Below, in pieces: positions 27,702 to 58,211 of a stretch of 64,000 nt of DNA; the first letter of the stretch is position 1; the number at the start of each line of letters is the position of its first letter. The notes beneath the pieces are model-generated. The model was not told where the DNA came from and searched no databases. It saw only the letters and a list, made by a program, of their open reading frames with translations. This DNA is from an archaeon. Its GTDB lineage: Archaea > Iainarchaeota > Iainarchaeia > Iainarchaeales > CSSED10-239. Location of the stretch: positions 306,644-370,643 of the forward strand of contig DAOMZT010000001.1 of NCBI GenBank assembly GCA_035400625.1, given 5' to 3'. The translations under genes and the position numbers were made by a program.

Positions 27702-28154
27702 ATGTTTACTAAAAAAGGCCAACTCTCAATAGAGGTTCTAATAATTATTATTTTTTTGATTACCTTTATCTATGTTTATAATAATTTAGCAGAACAAGCA
27801 GTTTATTCTTTAGAGATAAACAAGATAAAAGAGCAAGAGCTAACAATTGCTCTTTCTGTTAATGAATTTTTAGAGGCGCAAAAGAACATTTTGGCAGATA
27901 CTAACATAGTAGATTATAATGCAACCTATCGTTTACCAACAATTACAATTGCTAGCAAGAAAATAACCTCTTGTTTTGTAGATATAAACCTAGATACTCA
28001 AATGTTGATTGTTCAAACTGACTATTCAAATATCCACACAGATATGGATGTTAATCTTCCAAAAGATGATTTTAATATTTCTGGAATAATAAGTTGTGGG
28101 GAGACAATCATATGCAATAAGCCTTCAACAAAAATAGAGTGTAAGCAAATATGA
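27702..28154 (+). CDS. type IV pilin-like protein (class III signal peptide)
   Basis: MFTKKG|QLSIEVLIIIIFLITFIYV, with Glu at +5. Confidence 0.65.
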   Translation: MFTKKGQLSIEVLIIIIFLITFIYVYNNLAEQAVYSLEINKIKEQELTIALSVNEFLEAQKNILADTNIVDYNATYRLPTITIASKKITSCFVDINLDTQMLIVQTDYSNIHTDMDVNLPKDDFNISGIISCGETIICNKPSTKIECKQI

Positions 28155-28639
28155 TGGATACAAGAAAAGGACAAGTAATGTTATTAGATGTGCTATTTGC
28201 AGTAGTTATAATTATACTTATGTTTTTCTTGTTAATAAAGTTTGTAGAAACTGACATCTATAAAACAAATGTTGATAGTAGGACAGAAGAGTTAACAAGT
28301 GTCGGATCTTTAGCATATCAAAAGTTTTTGAATAATCCAAAAATTAATTGTAAAGTCAAAGATACACAAAATTCTTTTTATATTCCCGGAACCATTAATA
28401 CCACAACCACGATAACAAAAGCAGATCTTGGAATACCCTTAGATTATAATTGCCAAGTTATAGGGGTATCAGTTACTGGTTGTCAAACAGCAGGATTTGA
28501 CGGCCCATCTTACACAATCCAATTTCCTGTTGTTACCTGTACAGATGATTTAAACAAAAACACTTATGTTGATTATGTAACAAATACTTCTGACCCATCA
28601 TCATCAATAATAACATTAAATGTATGGAGGGCAAGTTAA
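28151..28639 (+). CDS. type IV pilin-like protein (class III signal peptide)
   Basis: MMDTRKG|QVMLLDVLFAVVIIILMFF. ATGA overlap with the previous gene. Confidence 0.6.
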   Translation: MMDTRKGQVMLLDVLFAVVIIILMFFLLIKFVETDIYKTNVDSRTEELTSVGSLAYQKFLNNPKINCKVKDTQNSFYIPGTINTTTTITKADLGIPLDYNCQVIGVSVTGCQTAGFDGPSYTIQFPVVTCTDDLNKNTYVDYVTNTSDPSSSIITLNVWRAS

Positions 28640-28935
28640 TGAAATCAAAAGCATTTATATTTAGTGTTACTGCTCTTTATTTTGTTATGTTGTTTGTTTT
28701 ATTTATGGGCCTTATTAATTATACTTTTCATCGTCCAGTCTATAAGCAGACAACCTCTGTGATTGATAAGATGGCAACAAAATATGTTTCAGGAGATATA
28801 AATGTTAACCCTGAAGTTTCTAATAAATGGTGTGTAAGAAGAATAGTTTATGATGCTAACAAACCTGATAAAAGTCAATCACCAAGAGAAATAAAAATAT
28901 ATTGTGAGGATTATGGCGCGCAAAGGTTTATTTGA
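28639..28935 (+). CDS. pilin-like small protein
   Basis: MKSKA|FIFSVTALYFVMLFVLF. The TAATG overlap with the previous gene favours ATG at 28639 over the track start at 28624. Confidence 0.5.
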   Translation: MKSKAFIFSVTALYFVMLFVLFMGLINYTFHRPVYKQTTSVIDKMATKYVSGDINVNPEVSNKWCVRRIVYDANKPDKSQSPREIKIYCEDYGAQRFI

Positions 28936-29395
28936 ATTGGTTTTTATTTTAGTGATGCTTACTTTGATGCTTCCTGCAACAACGCATCATTCAGCTATTG
29001 TTACCTATAGTGCTCAAGCTCAGGCAAATGATCTTTTGTTATTGACAGATCAAGCGATTGCTGATGCTCTAGCTGATGGCTCTCACAGTAGTTGTTCAGC
29101 AAGTAACTCACAGGTTCAAAATTATGTCAATAATCTTCAAAACGATTATCGAGCAATAGGAAATGATTGTAATGTTGATGTTTCTGGTATTGGCGGTTTA
29201 AATCCATATTCTGGAACTGCAGAAGTTACTTGCCTTAAGAACAATGGCAACACCACAACATATGTTAAGAAAAGAATGGCTTTTAATAAAACAGTTAGTG
29301 TTGCGCCTAGTGGTAGTATTTGTCATGTAACCGTTTCTGATAACCTTTATAGCCATTCTGAGACACAAGTAGATTATAATCTAAGTTACCGTTAG
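28904..29395 (+). CDS. type IV pilin-like protein (class III signal peptide)
   Basis: (MRI)MARKG|LFELVFILVMLTLML. The mature part is Cys-containing and S/T/N-rich. The start may be 28913. Confidence 0.6.
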   Translation: MRIMARKGLFELVFILVMLTLMLPATTHHSAIVTYSAQAQANDLLLLTDQAIADALADGSHSSCSASNSQVQNYVNNLQNDYRAIGNDCNVDVSGIGGLNPYSGTAEVTCLKNNGNTTTYVKKRMAFNKTVSVAPSGSICHVTVSDNLYSHSETQVDYNLSYR

Positions 29396-31170
29396 GTAGT
29401 AAAGTAATATTTATTTTCTTTTTTTTGTTCTTGGTCTTTTTGTGAGCCTGGCTTGTTTGCTCTTGGTCTTTTAGTCTCAGGATCTTGTCTAAAGGTCATG
29501 TTTTCATTTTTTAAAAAACTATTAAAAGCATCTTGTATGTCAGTAATGCCTTTTACAAAGCCCTTCTCCCCTGCAACACCATCAAACAAAAGCATTCTAT
29601 CAGAGATATAATCTAATAGAAGAAGATCGTGATCAACAACAAATGCACATTTTTCTGTCTTTGTGATAATATTTTTTATGGCTGTAGAAACAACAAGCCT
29701 TAGCTCAACATCCAAGAAAGCACTTGGCTCATCTATCAAGTAGATGTCTGCATTCTTTGATAGACAATAAGCTATTGCAACTTTTTGTAATTCTCCACCA
29801 CTAAGCTCTCCAATTTTTTGATTAAATAAACTTTCTAAATCAAATTGTCTTTTTAGTTCCATAGCAAAGATTTCTTGATCTATTTCTTTTCCGCTAAATA
29901 AATCTCTAACAATCATCTCTTGGTCTAAGTCAATATATTGTGGCTTGTATGATATTTTTAGATTTAGATCAATATTATTCTCTTCTGATTTTTCTAGGCC
30001 AGCAAGAGTTTTGATAAATGTGGTTTTGCCAATTGCATTTGCACCAAGTATTCCGATTACTTCGCCTTTGTTTACTCTTGCTCCTGTTGCTTCAAGCTTG
30101 AAGTTTCCTAATTTTTTAGTAAATGATGGATATTCAAAAAACAAAAGTCTTTTTGTTATGCTTTTGTCTTGTGTGGAGACAAAGGTTATGGCATTAGTCC
30201 TGATTCTGATATTTTCTTCTTTTAAAAAGCCATCTAAAAACTCGTTTATTCCTTTCTTTGTGGTTTTTTTGTTAGAAGAAATACCATATGCTTGTTTCTG
30301 TCCAAAGAACACATGCACAAAGTCGCTCAGGTAATCTAAGATTGCAAGATCGTGTTCTATCATAAGCATAGAGTTTTTTTCATTTATCTTTTCTCTTAGG
30401 ATTTTTGCAATTCTAAACCTTTGCTTGATATCTAAAAACGTAGAATACTCATCAAAAAAATAAAGATTGGCATTTTTTAACAGAGTAGAGGCGATTGCGA
30501 CTCTTTGCAGTTCCCCACCAGAAATTTCTTTTGGTGTTTTTTCAAGTAGCTTTTCAAGCTCTAGTTCTTTTATTACTTGTGCTTTATAATCTTTATCTTT
30601 TGAGATGCCATTTATAAGTTCGCCTATTTTTTTGTTATAGACTTTTGGGATGTCTTCTACCTTTTGTATCTTGTAAGCAATTGTTGTCTTGTTGTCTCTT
30701 AGATCCTCAAAATGCTGTTGTATTGCCTTGCCTCTGAAATACTCAAGCACTTTTTCTTTATCACCCTGTTTAGAGTAATCCCCAAAATTAGGAACTAGAT
30801 TTCCTGACAAAATATTAATGGCTGTTGTTTTTCCAGCACCATTTCTTCCAATAACACCAGTAATAAACCCTTTCTCTATTGTTGGTAAAGAAAAAAGCCT
30901 AAACATGTTTTTCCCATATTGATGAAGCGGGTTGTCTAGTTCCATTCCAATATTAATTATTGATATTGCTTTTTCTGGGCACCTGTTCTGGCAAATACCA
31001 CAACCAGTACATAATGTCTCATCAATAATTGGAAAGATATTTTGTGGCTCAACAATTATTGTTTCTTCGTTCATTCGCACACCTGGACAAAGCCTCTTAC
31101 AAAGATAATTGCAGTTTTTTGGTTGACATTTGTCTTTATCCAGAATTGCGATTCTTATGTTTTTTGCCAT
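29392..31170 (-). CDS. abce1: ABCE1 / RNase L inhibitor homolog (ribosome recycling ATPase)
   Basis: An N-terminal 2x[4Fe-4S] region (CQPKNCNYLCKRLCP, CTGCGICQNRCP) and two ABC cassettes (GRNGAGKTT, GANAIGKTT, 2x SGGELQ). Confidence 0.93.
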   Translation of the reverse strand: MAKNIRIAILDKDKCQPKNCNYLCKRLCPGVRMNEETIIVEPQNIFPIIDETLCTGCGICQNRCPEKAISIINIGMELDNPLHQYGKNMFRLFSLPTIEKGFITGVIGRNGAGKTTAINILSGNLVPNFGDYSKQGDKEKVLEYFRGKAIQQHFEDLRDNKTTIAYKIQKVEDIPKVYNKKIGELINGISKDKDYKAQVIKELELEKLLEKTPKEISGGELQRVAIASTLLKNANLYFFDEYSTFLDIKQRFRIAKILREKINEKNSMLMIEHDLAILDYLSDFVHVFFGQKQAYGISSNKKTTKKGINEFLDGFLKEENIRIRTNAITFVSTQDKSITKRLLFFEYPSFTKKLGNFKLEATGARVNKGEVIGILGANAIGKTTFIKTLAGLEKSEENNIDLNLKISYKPQYIDLDQEMIVRDLFSGKEIDQEIFAMELKRQFDLESLFNQKIGELSGGELQKVAIAYCLSKNADIYLIDEPSAFLDVELRLVVSTAIKNIITKTEKCAFVVDHDLLLLDYISDRMLLFDGVAGEKGFVKGITDIQDAFNSFLKNENMTFRQDPETKRPRANKPGSQKDQEQKKENKYYFTT

Positions 31171-31189
31171 GTTTAATCATTTTCTTATA
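31168..31189. repeat. junction repeat copy X (minus strand: TATAAGAAAATGATTAAACATG)
   Basis: Covers the last codons and stop of ORF 31177..31968, the spacer, and the ATG of abce1. It matches 31966-31991 at 21/22 positions plus one 4-nt indel. Confidence 0.8.
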
Positions 31190-31968
31190 AATTCTATAGT
31201 GTTAGGATCAAATCTGTAACCGTTATATTTGTTTGCTACAAATTTAAGTTGAATCCCTAATAACTCATACATCTCTATTCTGCTTTTATTGCTATTAAAT
31301 AAATGTTTATATTTTAAAAAATTTAATATTTCAATTGGATTGAACAAGCCATTTTCTAAACAAAATACCATAAGTTCAACATTATATTTTGTGTGATTAA
31401 GAATTGGTTTTTCTTTTTCTAAATATTTTCTACCTTCTGCTTTACTTAATAATTCATTTATAAAAACAATTTTTGAAATACTTGCTTGAAAAGTAAATTG
31501 TTGTTCATAAGTCAAATTTTGTTGTTCAAAGATTTTTGATAACTGATTAAAAGTTTTACCTGCCTTTTTTTGAAAATTTTTAAAAGATGTTTCATATTTA
31601 GGGCGTACATGATATTGCACTTGCCCACTAATCTTTTTGCCTTCATTTATATAAATTACATTTGAGTTTTTTGACAAAACCAGATCTGTAATACTTGGCA
31701 TCAAAGAAATAGGGTTTGTTTTTGGATGTGTGTGTGCAAAATAGATTGTGCCACCTTTACTTTCTGTTTTCTTTATATAATTTATAGTTTTTTCTATATC
31801 AAGATATACAGATTTATTTCCTTTATTTTGAGTAACATTTTTCATTTGGCATCTGCTTCTTTTTATAAAAGCATGTTCTAGATGAGGGTTTTCACTAATT
31901 GCTTTTTCTACAACCTTAATTGGTCTTATTCTGGCCCTAGGTCGCACAGTTCTAGGTTTTGGTGGCAT
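31177..31968 (-). CDS. hypothetical protein: basic N-terminal tail (MPPKPRTVRPRARIRP) plus a JAB/MPN+ (JAMM)-like motif
   Basis: FAHTHPKTNPISLMPSITD gives H-x-H ... S-x-x-D with a longer spacer than canonical JAMM. 263 aa. Paralog of 8633..9385. It is packed between rfcL (2-nt gap) and abce1 (6-nt gap). Confidence 0.6.
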   Translation of the reverse strand: MPPKPRTVRPRARIRPIKVVEKAISENPHLEHAFIKRSRCQMKNVTQNKGNKSVYLDIEKTINYIKKTESKGGTIYFAHTHPKTNPISLMPSITDLVLSKNSNVIYINEGKKISGQVQYHVRPKYETSFKNFQKKAGKTFNQLSKIFEQQNLTYEQQFTFQASISKIVFINELLSKAEGRKYLEKEKPILNHTKYNVELMVFCLENGLFNPIEILNFLKYKHLFNSNKSRIEMYELLGIQLKFVANKYNGYRFDPNTIEFIRK

Positions 31969-31991
31969 GTTTACTCCATTATTTTCTTATA
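31966..31991. repeat. junction repeat copy Y (minus strand: TATAAGAAAATAATGGAGTAAACATG)
   Basis: Covers the last codons and stop of rfcL, the spacer, and the ATG of ORF 31177..31968. Confidence 0.8.
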
Positions 31992-33206
31992 TTGTTTTTC
32001 AGTAATCTTTGCTCCAAGATATTTCATTTCTTCAAGAGTGAAACCAAAGTGTTTTATAAGGTCTGTAGTGCATTTGTTTGTTTTTGCAATTATTAACAAA
32101 AATGGCAGATAGTCTCTTAAGATAATTCTCTTAGAGCAATGTATTTTTTCTTTCATTTTTTCTACAACCGACTTTTGCAATGTCTTGTTTTTTGTAGTAT
32201 ACATCCTCATAACTCTTGGGAACTGAAATGGAGTATACCCTCCACTTATTTCTCTGTCTTTCTTGGAATATGCGACCCCTACTGTCAAGTAGTCAAAAAC
32301 ATACTTTAAAAGAACCCAGTTACTTCCTCTGATCCTTGCATAATTAATGTCTGCTTTGCTTAGATTATCAAATGCGCGATTAAGATTATTTGTGTTCTTG
32401 TATTGTCTAGGAATGTTTTCTTCTACCCAAAGCATTAACAAGTCCCAGTTGATATTTAGGGTATCAATAACATTTCTTGTTTCATAAAAGTCCTTAGGAT
32501 AGAAAATTTTCTGTAACACCTTAAAAACATCTTCGTCTTTCTTCCTATCACCAAGCGATTCTGTATCTTCAAGGGTTATCTTCTTATCAAAAGAAAGAGT
32601 AAAAATATCAATCATTGTTGCTCTAACATCATTACTTGCATTTTCAACAATTCTGTTTAATGCTACAAGATCATAATCAATATCTTCTTTATCACAAATG
32701 CCCTTAGCAAATTTTAGAATTGATGGTTTTGGTGGCAAGTCAAACTTTATTTTTTCACATTTTTCAAAAATAGGTCGTAATTTTTTATTTTCATAAGGGT
32801 CATTAGCAATAATGATGATTGGCTGTTTGGATTTATCAAGTATTTTGTCTAGCTCTGTAAAAAAACCATAGTCTTCTCCGCCTCTCTTGTCAGAAACAGA
32901 ATCAATCTCGTCAATTAACACAAGCCTTGTAGTTCCAAAAAGAGTATTTGTTGTGCAAGCAGCATTAAGTAAGTTTTTTGTGCTTTCCTTATCTCTCAAG
33001 TCAGAAGCATCTGTTGTCAGTGTTGTCCATTTTTTTTCTTTAGCCAAGAGATTAGCAACAAGCGTTTTTCCAACACCCGGAGCCCCATAGATAAATAAAG
33101 GTTTATCATAATTTTCACTCCATCGTCTTATAGCTTCTATTGCAGGCCTATTTCCAACAACTTCATCAAGGCTTTTTGGAGTGTATTTATCAAAAAAGCT
33201 CTTCAT
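31971..33206 (-). CDS. rfcL: replication factor C large subunit
   Basis: KYTPKSLDEVVGN, Walker A GAPGVGKT, and LIDEID. Length is 411 aa. Confidence 0.85.
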   Translation of the reverse strand: MKSFFDKYTPKSLDEVVGNRPAIEAIRRWSENYDKPLFIYGAPGVGKTLVANLLAKEKKWTTLTTDASDLRDKESTKNLLNAACTTNTLFGTTRLVLIDEIDSVSDKRGGEDYGFFTELDKILDKSKQPIIIIANDPYENKKLRPIFEKCEKIKFDLPPKPSILKFAKGICDKEDIDYDLVALNRIVENASNDVRATMIDIFTLSFDKKITLEDTESLGDRKKDEDVFKVLQKIFYPKDFYETRNVIDTLNINWDLLMLWVEENIPRQYKNTNNLNRAFDNLSKADINYARIRGSNWVLLKYVFDYLTVGVAYSKKDREISGGYTPFQFPRVMRMYTTKNKTLQKSVVEKMKEKIHCSKRIILRDYLPFLLIIAKTNKCTTDLIKHFGFTLEEMKYLGAKITEKQYKKIME

Positions 33207-34772: not shown

Positions 34773-35054
34773 ATGATTATAATGGGAATAATTAAGCCAA
34801 AACCAAAAAGGCCAACAGTAAAAACACAAAATGCGAAATTTACCGCTAGTAATAAAGGAAGACTATTTGCATCTAGCATGGTGGAGAAAACACCAGATGG
34901 GCGCATAAGATTAAGAAAATCCTCACAAAAGGTAACAAAACCAAATTACACAAAATCTGAATTAATTAACATATTAAAATGGGTGGATAATCCAAGAGGT
35001 TATTTTTTAGAAGAAGGAATGACTTTAAAAGATTTAAAAAAAAATAAAAAATAA
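34773..35054 (+). CDS. small basic hypothetical protein (tail GIIKPKPKRPTVK)
   Basis: 93-aa ORF, K-rich at both ends. No recognisable family. Confidence 0.45.
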   Translation: MIIMGIIKPKPKRPTVKTQNAKFTASNKGRLFASSMVEKTPDGRIRLRKSSQKVTKPNYTKSELINILKWVDNPRGYFLEEGMTLKDLKKNKK

Positions 35055-48662: not shown

Positions 48663-48694
48663 GATTATATTGTGTTTTTTAATATATTAAGAGA

Positions 48695-49504
48695 GTGAAA
48701 AGAATGGGAGAAGTTTTTGCAATAGTTTCTGGCAAAGGGGGGGTTGGTAAAACCACCCTGACTGGAAATTTAGGAATTGCATTAGCAGAGTTAGGATATT
48801 CTGTATTGTTAATTGATGCAGATCTAGCGATGGCAAATTTAAGTTTGTTAATGGGGCTTAAAACACCACCAATAACAATACATGACGTGTTGTTAGGTTC
48901 TGCGCCAGCCACAGATGCAATTTATGATGGCCCAAAAGGCACGAAAATATTGCCAGCAGGTCTTTCTCTTTCTTTTTATACAAGAGTAGATATTGAAAGG
49001 TTAGTTGCAGTAACAAATGAATTAAAATCCAAATTCGATTATATATTGATTGATTCTCCAGCAGGGATAGAAAAGAATGTTATTGCTGCTATGTCTGCAT
49101 CTACTCAAATTATTTTAATCACTGAGCCAACAGCTCCATCTGTTGCAGATGCATTTAAAGCAAAGATTGTTGCTCAAAGACTTAATCAAAGAGTTTTTGG
49201 AGTAATTATAAATAAATATAGTAATACTAAAGGAGAAATTTCAGAAAACGAAATCATGAAAATGCTAGAGTTGCCATCATATGGCAAAATACCACATTCT
49301 GATGAAATTAGACAATCCTTCTTGTTAAAGAAGATAAAGCCACTTCTAGTACACAACCCTAATTGTTCTGCTGCAAATTCATTTAGAGCAATTGCAAGAA
49401 AGATAACAGGTAAAGAAACAGATGTTGTAAAAACAGAAAAAAAGAAAGGGCTGTTTTCTGGACTTTTCAAATCTTTAGGAAACATGTTTAAAAAGAAAAA
49501 ATAA
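48695..49504 (+). CDS. minD: MinD/ParA-family ATPase with a C-terminal amphipathic helix
   Basis: Deviant Walker A SGKGGVGKTT, LLIDADL, and IDSPAG. The C-terminus KKGLFSGLFKSLGNMFKKKK looks like a membrane-targeting helix. Confidence 0.85.
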   Translation: MKRMGEVFAIVSGKGGVGKTTLTGNLGIALAELGYSVLLIDADLAMANLSLLMGLKTPPITIHDVLLGSAPATDAIYDGPKGTKILPAGLSLSFYTRVDIERLVAVTNELKSKFDYILIDSPAGIEKNVIAAMSASTQIILITEPTAPSVADAFKAKIVAQRLNQRVFGVIINKYSNTKGEISENEIMKMLELPSYGKIPHSDEIRQSFLLKKIKPLLVHNPNCSAANSFRAIARKITGKETDVVKTEKKKGLFSGLFKSLGNMFKKKK

Positions 49505-49556
49505 AAAAGAAAAAAGGACAAAAAGAAAATTGTTTTAATATATAAAGGAGAAAAAA

Positions 49557-49787
49557 ATGAGCGAAACAAAAATATCACGACCATTTGACATGCTAAACAA
49601 TTCCTTGAATAAACAAGTTTTAATAAATTTAAAAGGAAATGTGACTGTCAGAGGAAAATTAAAAGCATTTGATGTGCATCTAAACATAGTGTTAGAAGAT
49701 GCAGAAGAAATAGAAAATGGAAAACCAAAAGCAAAATATATTGAAGTTTTCTTAAGAGGAGATAATGTTATATTAGTAACAGTATAA
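49557..49787 (+). CDS. Sm-like archaeal protein (SmAP/LSm)
   Basis: Sm1 (VLINLKGNVTVRGKLKAFDVHLNIVLEDAEE) and Sm2 (VFLRGDNVILV) motifs. Confidence 0.85.
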   Translation: MSETKISRPFDMLNNSLNKQVLINLKGNVTVRGKLKAFDVHLNIVLEDAEEIENGKPKAKYIEVFLRGDNVILVTV

Positions 49788-58204: not shown

Positions 58205-58211
58205 TTATTAA
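58198..58211. repeat. 14-bp perfect direct repeat copy 2 (taagtgattattaa)
   Basis: Covers the last codon and TGA of the toxin, the spacer, and the first nt of the hef nuclease ATG. Confidence 0.9.

What the first reader, a model, noticed from the sequence alone, without database searches (positions are those of the whole stretch)
31168..31991. JAMM-like ORF between rfcL and abce1 is bracketed by a duplicated stop-spacer-start junction
On the minus strand, TATAAGAAAATAATGGAGTAAACATG covers the rfcL end, its stop, AC, and the ATG of the ORF. TATAAGAAAATGATTAAACATG covers the ORF end, its stop, TTAAAC, and the ATG of abce1. Apart from a 4-nt indel the two differ at one base. The simplest reading is that rfcL was once followed directly by abce1, and the 263-aa ORF was inserted with duplication of the whole junction.
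Basis: seen in the sequence. Interest (0 to 1): 0.7.

Follow-up and report, generated by a model that had tools for sequence, protein, structure and literature searches.

The report
Look-alike gene junctions around JAMM gene
The two near-identical junction sequences around this small archaeal gene are real but are probably a coincidence of two independently conserved gene ends, not an insertion scar; the gene itself is an old, fast-changing, sometimes-lost JAMM-type protease-like gene that sits after the clamp-loader gene rfcL.

Summary
Observation confirmed. On the minus strand, TATAAGAAAAT(AATG)GAGTAAACATG (31991-31966) and TATAAGAAAATGATTAAACATG (31189-31168) bracket a 263-aa ORF between rfcL and abce1. 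The 11-mer occurs nowhere else in the window.

Pairwise P is about 3e-4 to 1e-3. Corrected for 52 co-directional neighbouring gene pairs it is only 0.04-0.06.

Interpretation partly supported. Five relatives have rfcL directly followed by abce1, so presence/absence is real. A junction duplication is not supported:
- The two 11-mers lie in different reading frames.
- Each belongs to an independently conserved protein tail: rfcL ...QY(E)KI, and ORF family ...F-[IV]-[KR]-K-stop.
- The perfect match depends on a derived E-to-K change in rfcL.
- The A/B resemblance is at background level in the other single-copy clades closest to the window.
- Family members only 27-32% identical sit in the same slot in six further loci from four more distant lineages, so occupancy is ancestral.

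The ORF is a real gene with a JAMM/MPN+ fold and invariant E, HxH and D. It has no Pfam match and belongs to a tiny family. The slot holds 0-3 tandem copies. Between genomes 98-99% identical in the flanking genes, the ORF is 77% identical, which points to allele exchange by recombination.

The parts
31966..31991 (-). Junction A: last six codons of rfcL (Y-K-K-I-M-E), stop TAA (31973-31971), 2-nt spacer AC, and the ATG of the ORF. It contains the 11-mer TATAAGAAAAT (31991-31981) and a GGAG Shine-Dalgarno-like tetramer (31977-31974).
   Evidence: Sequence read; motif positions; alignment to junction B.
31168..31189 (-). Junction B: last codons of the ORF (F-I-R-K), stop TGA (31179-31177), 6-nt spacer TTAAAC, and the ATG of abce1. 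It contains the second TATAAGAAAAT (31189-31179), read in a different frame from junction A.
   Evidence: Almost the same sequence stands at the ORF/abce1 junction of the distant locus L022.
31177..31968 (-). 263-aa gene for a divergent JAMM/MPN+-like protein: basic N-terminal tail (residues 1-15), JAMM domain (about 15-121), helical domain (123-236) and C-terminal beta-strands (239-262).
   Evidence: Seven close homologues at 48-84% identity. Sixteen cluster representatives in 1.84 billion. AlphaFold2 model with pLDDT 92 and pTM 0.85. Foldseek top hit is P. furiosus JAMM1, 5ld9_A, E 9.7e-4, probability 1.0.
31606..31926 (-). JAMM/MPN+ domain with the family-invariant residues E31 (31878-31876), H79 (31734-31732), H81 (31728-31726) and D95 (31686-31684), and the nearly invariant S92 (31695-31693).
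   Evidence: Invariant columns of the 19-sequence alignment A2; structure matches.
31270..31940 (-). Hypervariable core of the ORF: 54-77% nt identity to L002 in 100-nt windows, while the flanking genes are 98-100% identical. About the first 100-130 nt carry only scattered differences and the last 90 nt or so are identical, so the divergence starts and stops inside the ORF.
31971..33206 (-). rfcL, replication factor C large subunit (411 aa).
   Evidence: NCBIfam NF003229, E 2.2e-88, above its cutoff.
29392..31170 (-). abce1/RLI, ribosome-recycling ABC ATPase (592 aa).
   Evidence: NCBIfam NF009945, E 3.2e-230; Pfam Fer4_RLI plus two ABC_tran domains.

Best explanation
The bracketing repeat is a lineage-specific coincidence between two unrelated but similarly built gene ends. 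It is not a scar of insertion.

Each junction is the lysine- and isoleucine-rich C-terminal coding tail of a conserved protein, written in the AT-rich codon vocabulary of a 30% G+C genome. Each tail is followed by a stop codon, a 2-6 nt spacer carrying a Shine-Dalgarno-like element (GGAG in junction A, TGAT in junction B) and the next ATG. This is the usual layout of a tightly packed, translationally coupled operon.

A G-to-A change in the rfcL tail (E to K) in the window's clade turned a 10/11 match into 11/11.

The ORF is a genuine gene: a divergent JAMM/MPN+ (zinc isopeptidase-type) domain fused to a helical domain. It has lived directly downstream of rfcL since before this group of DPANN-type archaea radiated (one locus is named Candidatus Iainarchaeum). 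The slot now holds 0, 1, 2 or 3 tandem paralogues in different lineages. The empty rfcL-abce1 junctions of some relatives are best read as clean losses. Alleles of the gene are swapped between lineages by homologous recombination, with breakpoints inside the gene.

Shown: the sequences, the conservation patterns, the fold, the synteny, the copy-number variation and the excess synonymous divergence. Inferred: co-transcription and translational coupling, metalloprotease activity, and any functional link to the clamp loader or the sliding clamp.
For: - Different reading frames of the 11-mer.
- Independent conservation of both tails.
- The E-to-K change is derived.
- A/B similarity is 15.0 only in the window, L010 and L002, against 8.0 in L003 and 6.0 in the L008 clade; null 6.6 +/- 1.6.
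- Junction B is conserved in the distant L022.
- The same slot is occupied in L008, L011-13, L014-16, L019, L020 and L022.
- Bootstrapped NJ tree of rfcL+abce1, 97-100% support on the backbone: the occupied lineages surround a grade of empty ones (L004; L005+L006; L007), and the empty L009 is nested among occupied ones.
- The slot holds two paralogues of the family in L014/L015 and three in L016.
- JAMM fold: model pLDDT 92. Foldseek returns PfJAMM1, BubCD, SRU_2040, RadC and AF2198, and phage MPN/JAB proteins.
- E31, H79, H81 and D95 are invariant.
- Window versus L002: dS is 0.52 in the ORF against 0.03-0.07 in the flanks, and dN/dS is 0.47 against 0.02-0.09.
- The ORF is 76.8% nt identical while the other 15 shared genes are 92.5-99.3%.
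- The L002 allele shares segments with L003.
- The surrounding genes are core housekeeping genes and no mobility gene was seen among those scanned.
Against: - The pairwise similarity is in the top 0.1% of junction pairs, so pure chance is uncomfortable. The family-wise P of about 0.05 is borderline rather than comfortable.
- In one relative (L016) a paralogue of this very family is bracketed by a 68-nt near-identical stop-spacer-start junction. Junction duplication or junction-spanning gene conversion therefore does occur in this slot.
- Parsimony on the tree does not separate three independent losses from one loss plus one re-gain in the window's ancestry. A re-insertion into an empty junction cannot be excluded.
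- Only two to three independent single-copy lineages were available for comparing junction A with junction B.
Confidence: 0.65

Rival explanations
1. True junction duplication. The ORF was (re-)inserted into an empty rfcL|abce1 junction in the ancestor of the window clade by an illegitimate or microhomology-mediated event that duplicated about 22-26 nt of the junction.
For: - Empty sites exist in the nearest ORF-less relative L004 and in others.
- One loss plus one re-gain (2 steps) is at least as parsimonious as three losses.
- The pairwise P is 3.5e-4.
- L016 shows that a family member can be bracketed by a long duplicated junction.
Against: - L003 belongs to the same ORF-bearing clade, so it would descend from the same re-insertion, yet it lacks the repeat (score 8.0).
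- The B half is the family-wide conserved C-terminus read in another frame and is nearly identical in the distant L022.
- The A half owes its perfection to a later E-to-K change.
- No mobility gene was found.
- There is no flank co-transfer signal: 16 filled-versus-empty sites, within the 9-23 range of the other minor partitions, against 23-49 for the main tree splits.
Confidence: 0.1
2. Concerted evolution or a shared signal. The two junctions have been made alike secondarily. This could be short-tract gene conversion between the two start regions 800 nt apart. It could also be selection for the same start-proximal regulatory element, a TATA-like (T)TATAAG about 15-24 nt upstream of the ATG plus an SD and spacer, giving internal promoters or coupling signals for the ORF and for abce1.
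For: - TTTATAAG lies 17-21 nt upstream of a called start in 3 of its 12 copies, against 0.27 expected. TATAAG does so at 15-23 nt in 4 cases.
- Junction B also resembles the upstream regions of the unrelated genes at 58211 (score 13.5) and 20064.
- The other top-scoring neighbouring pair (48704/49557) is evidently a shared promoter plus SD.
- In L016 a junction-spanning tract is about 98% identical between paralogues that are only 39% identical as proteins, which demonstrates conversion across junctions in this slot.
- In L014 and L016 the sequence before abce1 resembles that before the preceding paralogue.
Against: - The counts are very small and include the junction itself.
- The TATA-like element lies too close to the ATG for a canonical archaeal promoter with an SD-bearing leader (own knowledge of archaeal promoter spacing).
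- Homology of 10/11 plus 8/11 nt is very short for gene conversion.
- No transcript data are available.
Confidence: 0.2
3. Free-standing selfish (homing-type) or hypermutated cassette. The ORF spreads into empty rfcL|abce1 sites by cleaving them, or it is diversified by a retroelement, and the repeats mark its boundaries.
For: - Sporadic presence at one fixed site between two highly conserved genes.
- Extreme allele divergence in near-identical backgrounds.
Against: - The fold is JAMM plus a helical domain. Nuclease-like Foldseek hits (PvuII) are weak and non-significant (best probability 0.20, E 0.2 or higher).
- No co-conversion tracts were found in the flanks.
- Substitutions show no adenine bias: A 19%, T 21%, G 39%, C 31% of each base changed.
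- dS is raised together with dN, which is not what targeted mutagenesis would give.
- No viral relatives.
Confidence: 0.03

Closest known systems
Archaeal JAMM/MPN+ desampylases (Pyrococcus furiosus JAMM1, PDB 5ld9; Haloferax HvJAMM1; AF2198)
   Same: The predicted N-terminal domain superposes on PfJAMM1 (Foldseek E 9.7e-4, probability 1.0, TM 0.62 normalised to the target, rmsd 3.0 A over 118 columns). The metal-site signature E...H-x-H...S-x-x-D is invariant or nearly so across the family.
   Different: - No Pfam match at all. The NCBIfam desampylase model scores 15.8 bits against a cutoff of 130.
- The His-to-Ser spacer is 10 residues here (6-14 across the family) instead of 7.
- There is an extra helical domain of about 115 residues, C-terminal strands and a basic N-terminal tail.
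- No ubiquitin-like GG-ending ORF exists in the 64 kb.
- The genomic home is fixed after rfcL.
Target-site duplications and att-site repeats flanking inserted mobile DNA
   Same: Direct repeats bracket a segment that is present in some relatives and absent in others.
   Different: - No transposase or integrase.
- The two copies are separate conserved coding tails read in different frames.
- The repeat is absent in other carriers of the segment.
- The segment is ancestral at this site.
Tandem paralogue arrays with unequal crossing-over or gene conversion, and single-gene 'replacement' variable loci exchanged through conserved flanks
   Same: - 0-3 tandem copies in one slot.
- A 68-nt converted junction in L016.
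- Alleles with dS about ten times that of the flanks, and mosaic segments shared across lineages.
   Different: In the window there is only one copy. Its bracketing similarity is short (22-26 nt) and involves the tail of the non-paralogous rfcL gene.
Bacterial and phage JAB/MPN proteins (Citrobacter BubCD deubiquitinase-like module, RadC, phage tail or 'metalloprotease' MPN proteins)
   Same: Fold-level similarity.
   Different: Sequence identity is only 7-20%. These proteins have different partners and contexts, and no Bub/Bil-type E1, E2 or Ubl genes were seen in the scanned neighbourhood.

Membership tests
JAMM/MPN+ metalloprotease superfamily | MPN alpha/beta fold | tested here: met
   AlphaFold2 model with pLDDT 92 and pTM 0.85. 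The best PDB matches are all JAMM/JAB proteins: 5ld9 at E 9.7e-4, then BubCD, 2kcq, RadC and 1oi0. Phage MPN/JAB proteins match in BFVD.
JAMM/MPN+ metalloprotease superfamily | Metal-binding motif E-x(n)-H-x-H-x(7)-S-x-x-D | tested here: met
   E31, H79, H81 and D95 are invariant and S92 is at least 90% conserved in 19 sequences down to 24% identity. The H-to-S spacing is 10 in the window protein, not 7, so the loop is non-canonical.
JAMM/MPN+ metalloprotease superfamily | Match to a curated sequence model (Pfam JAB / Prok-JAB, NCBIfam desampylase) | tested here: not met
   No Pfam family for the window protein, and no JAB-type family among the families listed for the 19 members. NF041370 desampylase scores E 0.0095 and 15.8 bits against a cutoff of 130. 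A profile search of PDB sequences finds no JAMM chain.
JAMM/MPN+ metalloprotease superfamily | Zinc-dependent (iso)peptidase activity on a ubiquitin-like or other substrate | not testable with these tools
   Needs biochemistry. No GG-ending small ORF in the window.
Insertion with target-site (junction) duplication | Direct repeats at both ends of the segment | tested here: met
   21/22 identical plus a 4-nt gap.
Insertion with target-site (junction) duplication | Relatives with an empty site | tested here: met
   L004, L005, L006, L007 and L009 have rfcL stop, 1-5 nt, abce1 ATG.
Insertion with target-site (junction) duplication | The two repeat copies descend from one original sequence | tested here: not met
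   Copy B is the family-wide conserved ORF C-terminus in another frame and is conserved in L022. Copy A is the conserved rfcL tail with a late E-to-K change.
Insertion with target-site (junction) duplication | The repeat is shared by all lineages that inherited the insertion | tested here: not met
   A/B score is 8.0 in L003 and 6.0 in L008, L011 and L012, against 15.0 in the window clade; null 6.6 +/- 1.6.
Insertion with target-site (junction) duplication | Mobility machinery, or the segment is younger than its site | tested here: not met
   No transposase or integrase nearby. Homologues of 27-32% identity occupy the same slot in four more distant lineages.
Diversity-generating retroelement target | Adenine-specific substitutions, and a template repeat and reverse transcriptase nearby | tested here: not met
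   No adenine bias in 191 differences. The divergence spans about 650 nt with raised dS. No reverse transcriptase among the neighbouring genes scanned. The template repeat was not searched for.
Free-standing homing endonuclease gene | Nuclease domain and co-conversion of flanks | tested here: not met
   The fold is JAMM plus a helical domain. Sites diagnostic for filled versus empty are not clustered near the junction and are no more numerous than for other conflicting partitions.

The most novel reading that the evidence does not exclude
The JAMM-like family could be a conflict-driven accessory factor of the archaeal sliding-clamp system. One possibility is a deconjugating or processing protease acting on PCNA, RFC or a viral or host mimic of them. 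Its gene would be kept as a recombining, copy-number-variable cassette (0-3 copies) in the rfcL operon. Conserved junction microhomologies such as TAAACATG in the window, or the 68-nt junction in L016, would act as the substrates for recurrent precise loss, gain and exchange of cassettes.
Probability: 0.12. Interest if true: 0.6.

Novelty: new member of a known kind. Interest (0 to 1): 0.3.

Why it matters
The flagged feature, a supposed insertion scar, is most likely a look-alike produced by AT-rich coding tails and operon punctuation. It is a useful caution: in 30% G+C genomes, short direct repeats at gene junctions are weak evidence of insertion.

What is worth keeping is the gene. It belongs to an unannotated JAMM-fold family confined to a small group of DPANN-type archaea. 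It is almost always wedged between the clamp-loader large subunit and ABCE1, and once sits next to PCNA. It is present in 0-3 copies. It is by far the most divergent of the 16 genes compared between otherwise 98-99% identical genomes.

That combination of fixed address, rapid turnover and allele exchange is the signature of a gene under conflict or strong diversifying pressure, sitting inside a core replication and translation operon. It gives a concrete candidate for experiments on protein modification or host-symbiont interplay in DPANN archaea.

Tried and rejected
1. Genome-wide junction consensus. Rejected: only these two of 72 gene starts carry TAAACATG, and one-mismatch counts equal chance.
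2. Pfam, NCBIfam and PDB sequence searches for the ORF and its family gave nothing usable.
3. The first AlphaFold2 model, from 8 close sequences, was poor in the N-terminal domain (pLDDT 40-55) and its Foldseek search was meaningless. Adding 11 distant family members fixed this.
4. Viral origin. No relative in IMG/VR. BFVD gives only generic MPN/JAB fold matches.
5. DGR-type hypermutation. No adenine bias, and dS is raised.
6. Homing, or co-transfer of flanks with the ORF. Diagnostic sites are not clustered at the junction, and the filled|empty partition (16 sites) is no better supported than the other minor partitions (9-23).
7. A ubiquitin-like partner. No ORF of 50 aa or more ending in GG in the window.
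8. Literature. No paper links a JAMM protein to rfcL, abce1 or PCNA neighbourhoods in DPANN archaea.
9. A Biopython bootstrap run timed out. It was replaced by my own NJ bootstrap.
10. A canonical PIP-box reading of the conserved C-terminus was considered by eye and dropped. The spacing does not fit, and the model places these residues in beta-strands.
Full report
**1. What is in the sequence**

The window is a 30% G+C stretch of core archaeal genes. They include a Hel308-like helicase, a proteasome subunit, an FttA (aCPSF1-type) termination factor, the CCA-adding enzyme, EF-1beta, LonB, PCNA, PheRS and aIF5A.

On the minus strand the order is serine dehydratase beta and alpha, rfcL (31971-33206; NCBIfam RFC large subunit, E 2e-88), a 263-aa ORF (31177-31968), and abce1/RLI (29392-31170; E 3e-230).

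- Junction A: TATAAGAAAATAATGGAGTAAACATG at 31991-31966.
- Junction B: TATAAGAAAATGATTAAACATG at 31189-31168.

They align at 21/22 positions with one 4-nt gap.

**2. Is it more than chance?**

The 11-mer occurs only at these two places in 128 kb of both strands. None of the other 70 called gene starts is preceded by TAAAC. At one mismatch or fewer, both halves occur at the shuffled expectation, so this is not a junction consensus.

Against all 2485 pairs of 33-nt start-upstream sequences, the pair scores 15.0 (null 6.6 +/- 1.6) and ties for second. Composition-matched shuffles give P = 3.5e-4.

The window has 52 co-directional neighbouring gene pairs, so the chance of at least one such pair is about 0.04-0.06. 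The top-scoring pair is also a neighbouring pair and shares an obvious promoter/SD-like string.

**3.

A scan of one genome per species with rfcL returned six loci. In L004 (rfcL 90% identical), L005, L006, L007 and L009 (named Candidatus Iainarchaeum), rfcL is followed by abce1 after 1-5 nt with no ORF. L008 carries the ORF.

Look-ups by protein and a metagenome scan added further carriers: L001, L002 and L010 (same species-level clade as the window), L003, and L011-L013.

**4. Why it is nevertheless not a duplicated junction**

a. *Frames differ.* The 11-mer is read in different frames: Y-K-K-I in rfcL, and F-I-R-K-stop in the ORF.

b. *The rfcL tail is conserved on its own.* It reads ...Q-[YF]-E-K-[IL]... 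in nine of the thirteen lineages tabulated, including every relative with an empty site. The window, L002 and L010 alone have K for E (GAG to AAG). This derived change raises the match from 10/11 to 11/11.

c. *The ORF tail is conserved across the family.* The tail F-[IV]-[KR]-x is found in about 14 of 19 family members down to 26% identity. These include paralogues followed by another paralogue, and a member followed by a convergent lon gene. It is native coding sequence, not a read-through into a copy of the rfcL end.

d. *Other carriers lack the resemblance.* The A/B score is 8.0 in L003 and 6.0 in L008, L011 and L012. These values are at the null mean. Yet the lineages carry the same gene at the same place.

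e. *Junction B is old.* In L022 the ORF is 27% identical and the flank distance is 0.58. Its ORF/abce1 junction reads TTTATAAAAAATGATTAAATATG, against the window's TTTATAAGAAAATGATTAAACATG. Across lineages, abce1 is usually preceded by a (G)TGA(T)-type SD-like element.

f. *The 3' part of junction A is shared with a distant carrier.* ATGGAGTAAAYATG is shared with L011.

**5. Age and dynamics of the gene**

A profile search of 1.84 billion cluster representatives finds only 16 relatives.

Their contexts are as follows:
- P0009, P0010, P0012, P0023 and P0024, at 27-32% identity, all sit directly after rfcL and before abce1.
- P0008 sits directly after PCNA.
- P0016 is elsewhere.

In L014 and L015 the slot holds two paralogues of the family, and in L016 three.

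A bootstrapped NJ tree of rfcL+abce1 was built on about 1000 columns, with 97-100% support on the backbone. It gives this order, with copy number in parentheses:

(window, L003)(1) - L004 (0) - (L005, L006) (0) - L007 (0) - L008 (1) - L019 (1) - L020 (1) - {(L009 (0), L022 (1)), (L014 (2), L016 (3))}.

Occupancy is therefore ancestral. L009 is a loss. In the window's ancestry there were either three losses, or one loss and one re-gain. The flanks carry no signal that separates these two scenarios.

In L016 the middle paralogue is bracketed by a 68-nt, about 98% identical stop-spacer-start junction, although the paralogues are only 31-39% identical as proteins. So junction-spanning duplication or gene conversion does happen in this slot. 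This is the main reason I keep the rival explanations alive.

**6. The unexpected part: hypervariability**

Between the window and L002, rfcL is 99.1% and abce1 98.5% nt identical, but the ORF is 76.8-77.5% nt and 62% aa identical. The other 15 shared genes are 92.5-99.3% identical.

Synonymous divergence is 0.52 in the ORF against 0.03-0.07 in the flanks. dN/dS is 0.47 against 0.02-0.09. The three allele classes (window, L002, L003) are about equidistant, at roughly 60% aa identity, whatever the background distance.

The divergence begins and ends inside the ORF: about the first 100-130 nt differ only at scattered sites and the last 90 nt or so are identical. The L002 allele shares blocks of substitutions with L003. 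This points to old alleles moved by homologous recombination, combined with relaxed or diversifying selection. It does not point to in-place hypermutation, since there is no adenine bias.

**7. What the protein is**

With 19 family sequences, AlphaFold2 gives pLDDT 92 and pTM 0.85. The model has a basic tail, an alpha/beta domain (about 15-121), a helical domain (123-236) and C-terminal strands.

Foldseek against the PDB ranks P. furiosus JAMM1 first (E 9.7e-4, probability 1.0, rmsd 3.0 A over 118 columns). BubCD, SRU_2040, RadC and AF2198 follow. BFVD returns phage MPN/JAB proteins.

E31, H79, H81 and D95 are invariant and S92 nearly so. This is the JAMM signature with a longer His-to-Ser loop.

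Sequence models do not recognise the family. 'JAMM-like' is therefore supported at the level of fold and motif, and membership of any curated family is not.

Function is inferred only. It is a probable zinc (iso)peptidase, with conserved neighbourhood to the clamp loader in seven lineages and to the clamp in one. No ubiquitin-like partner is present in the window.

**8. Verdict**

The repeat is real but is best explained as a lineage-specific coincidence of two conserved, lysine-rich coding tails plus operon punctuation (confidence about 0.65). Secondary homogenisation or a shared start signal is the main rival (0.2). A true duplication on re-insertion is a minor one (0.1).

The finding as stated is of low interest. 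The gene it brackets is a modestly interesting new JAMM-fold family with an unusual evolutionary regime.

Noticed in passing
window 31177-31968 (-) versus L002 6001-6792, L003 6001-6888, L010 4001-4789: The ORF is by far the most divergent gene between near-identical genomes: 76.8% nt identity against 92.5-99.3% for the 15 other shared genes. dS is 0.52 against 0.03-0.07 in the flanks. The alleles are mosaic, with breakpoints inside the gene.
   Followed up: yes
L016 5001-7156; L014 5001-6434; L015 2332-3765: In more distant relatives the rfcL-abce1 slot holds two (L014, L015) or three (L016) tandem paralogues of the JAMM-like family. In L016 the middle copy is bracketed by a 68-nt near-identical stop-spacer-start junction, a genuine duplicated or converted junction.
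   Followed up: partly
L017 2-1373 and L018 75-845: One family member (P0008) lies directly downstream of PCNA and before a convergent lonB, instead of downstream of rfcL. This is a second link of the family to sliding-clamp genes.
   Followed up: partly
L003 6001-6130: The L003 allele has a 32-aa N-terminal extension rich in Lys, Ala and Pro (MKPKYKLKPRVKKPTTAKPVAVANKSAASKLKKIVAK...) that other alleles lack. It also has a 9-nt insertion (CTATATGAG) just before its stop codon.
   Followed up: no
window 27702-29395 (+): Four small ORFs of 150, 162, 103 and 163 aa have no Pfam match. The last begins with a hydrophobic, pilin-like signal (MRIMARKGLFELVFILVMLTL...). It is the second most divergent gene against L002 (92.5%), and its end overlaps the end of the convergent abce1 by 4 nt.
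   Followed up: no
window 48674-48706 and 49527-49559 (+): The upstream regions of two neighbouring genes share TTTTAATATAT...A(G)GAG...ATG. This is the highest-scoring junction pair in the window (15.5) and probably a shared promoter plus Shine-Dalgarno arrangement.
   Followed up: no
window 20045, 58194 (+) and 31191 (-): TTTATAAG lies 17-21 nt upstream of three called start codons, out of 12 copies in the window (0.27 expected). It may be a start-proximal signal in this genome.
   Followed up: partly
window, many gene starts (e.g. 40255, 58211, 53219, 61594, 8633): Shine-Dalgarno-like elements are often of the GGTGAT/AGTGAT type rather than GGAGG. This was judged by eye from the list of start-upstream sequences.
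   Followed up: no
L020 870-2122: In this relative an AbiEii-type toxin gene and a 192-aa partner lie between PCNA and rfcL. The same neighbourhood therefore accepts other accessory genes.
   Followed up: no
window 34773-35054 (+): A 93-aa ORF lies in the divergent region between the PCNA and serine-dehydratase/rfcL operons. It has a weak Mu Gam-like hit (E 0.004, below cutoff) and is 94.3% identical to L002, the third most divergent gene of the 16 compared.
   Followed up: no
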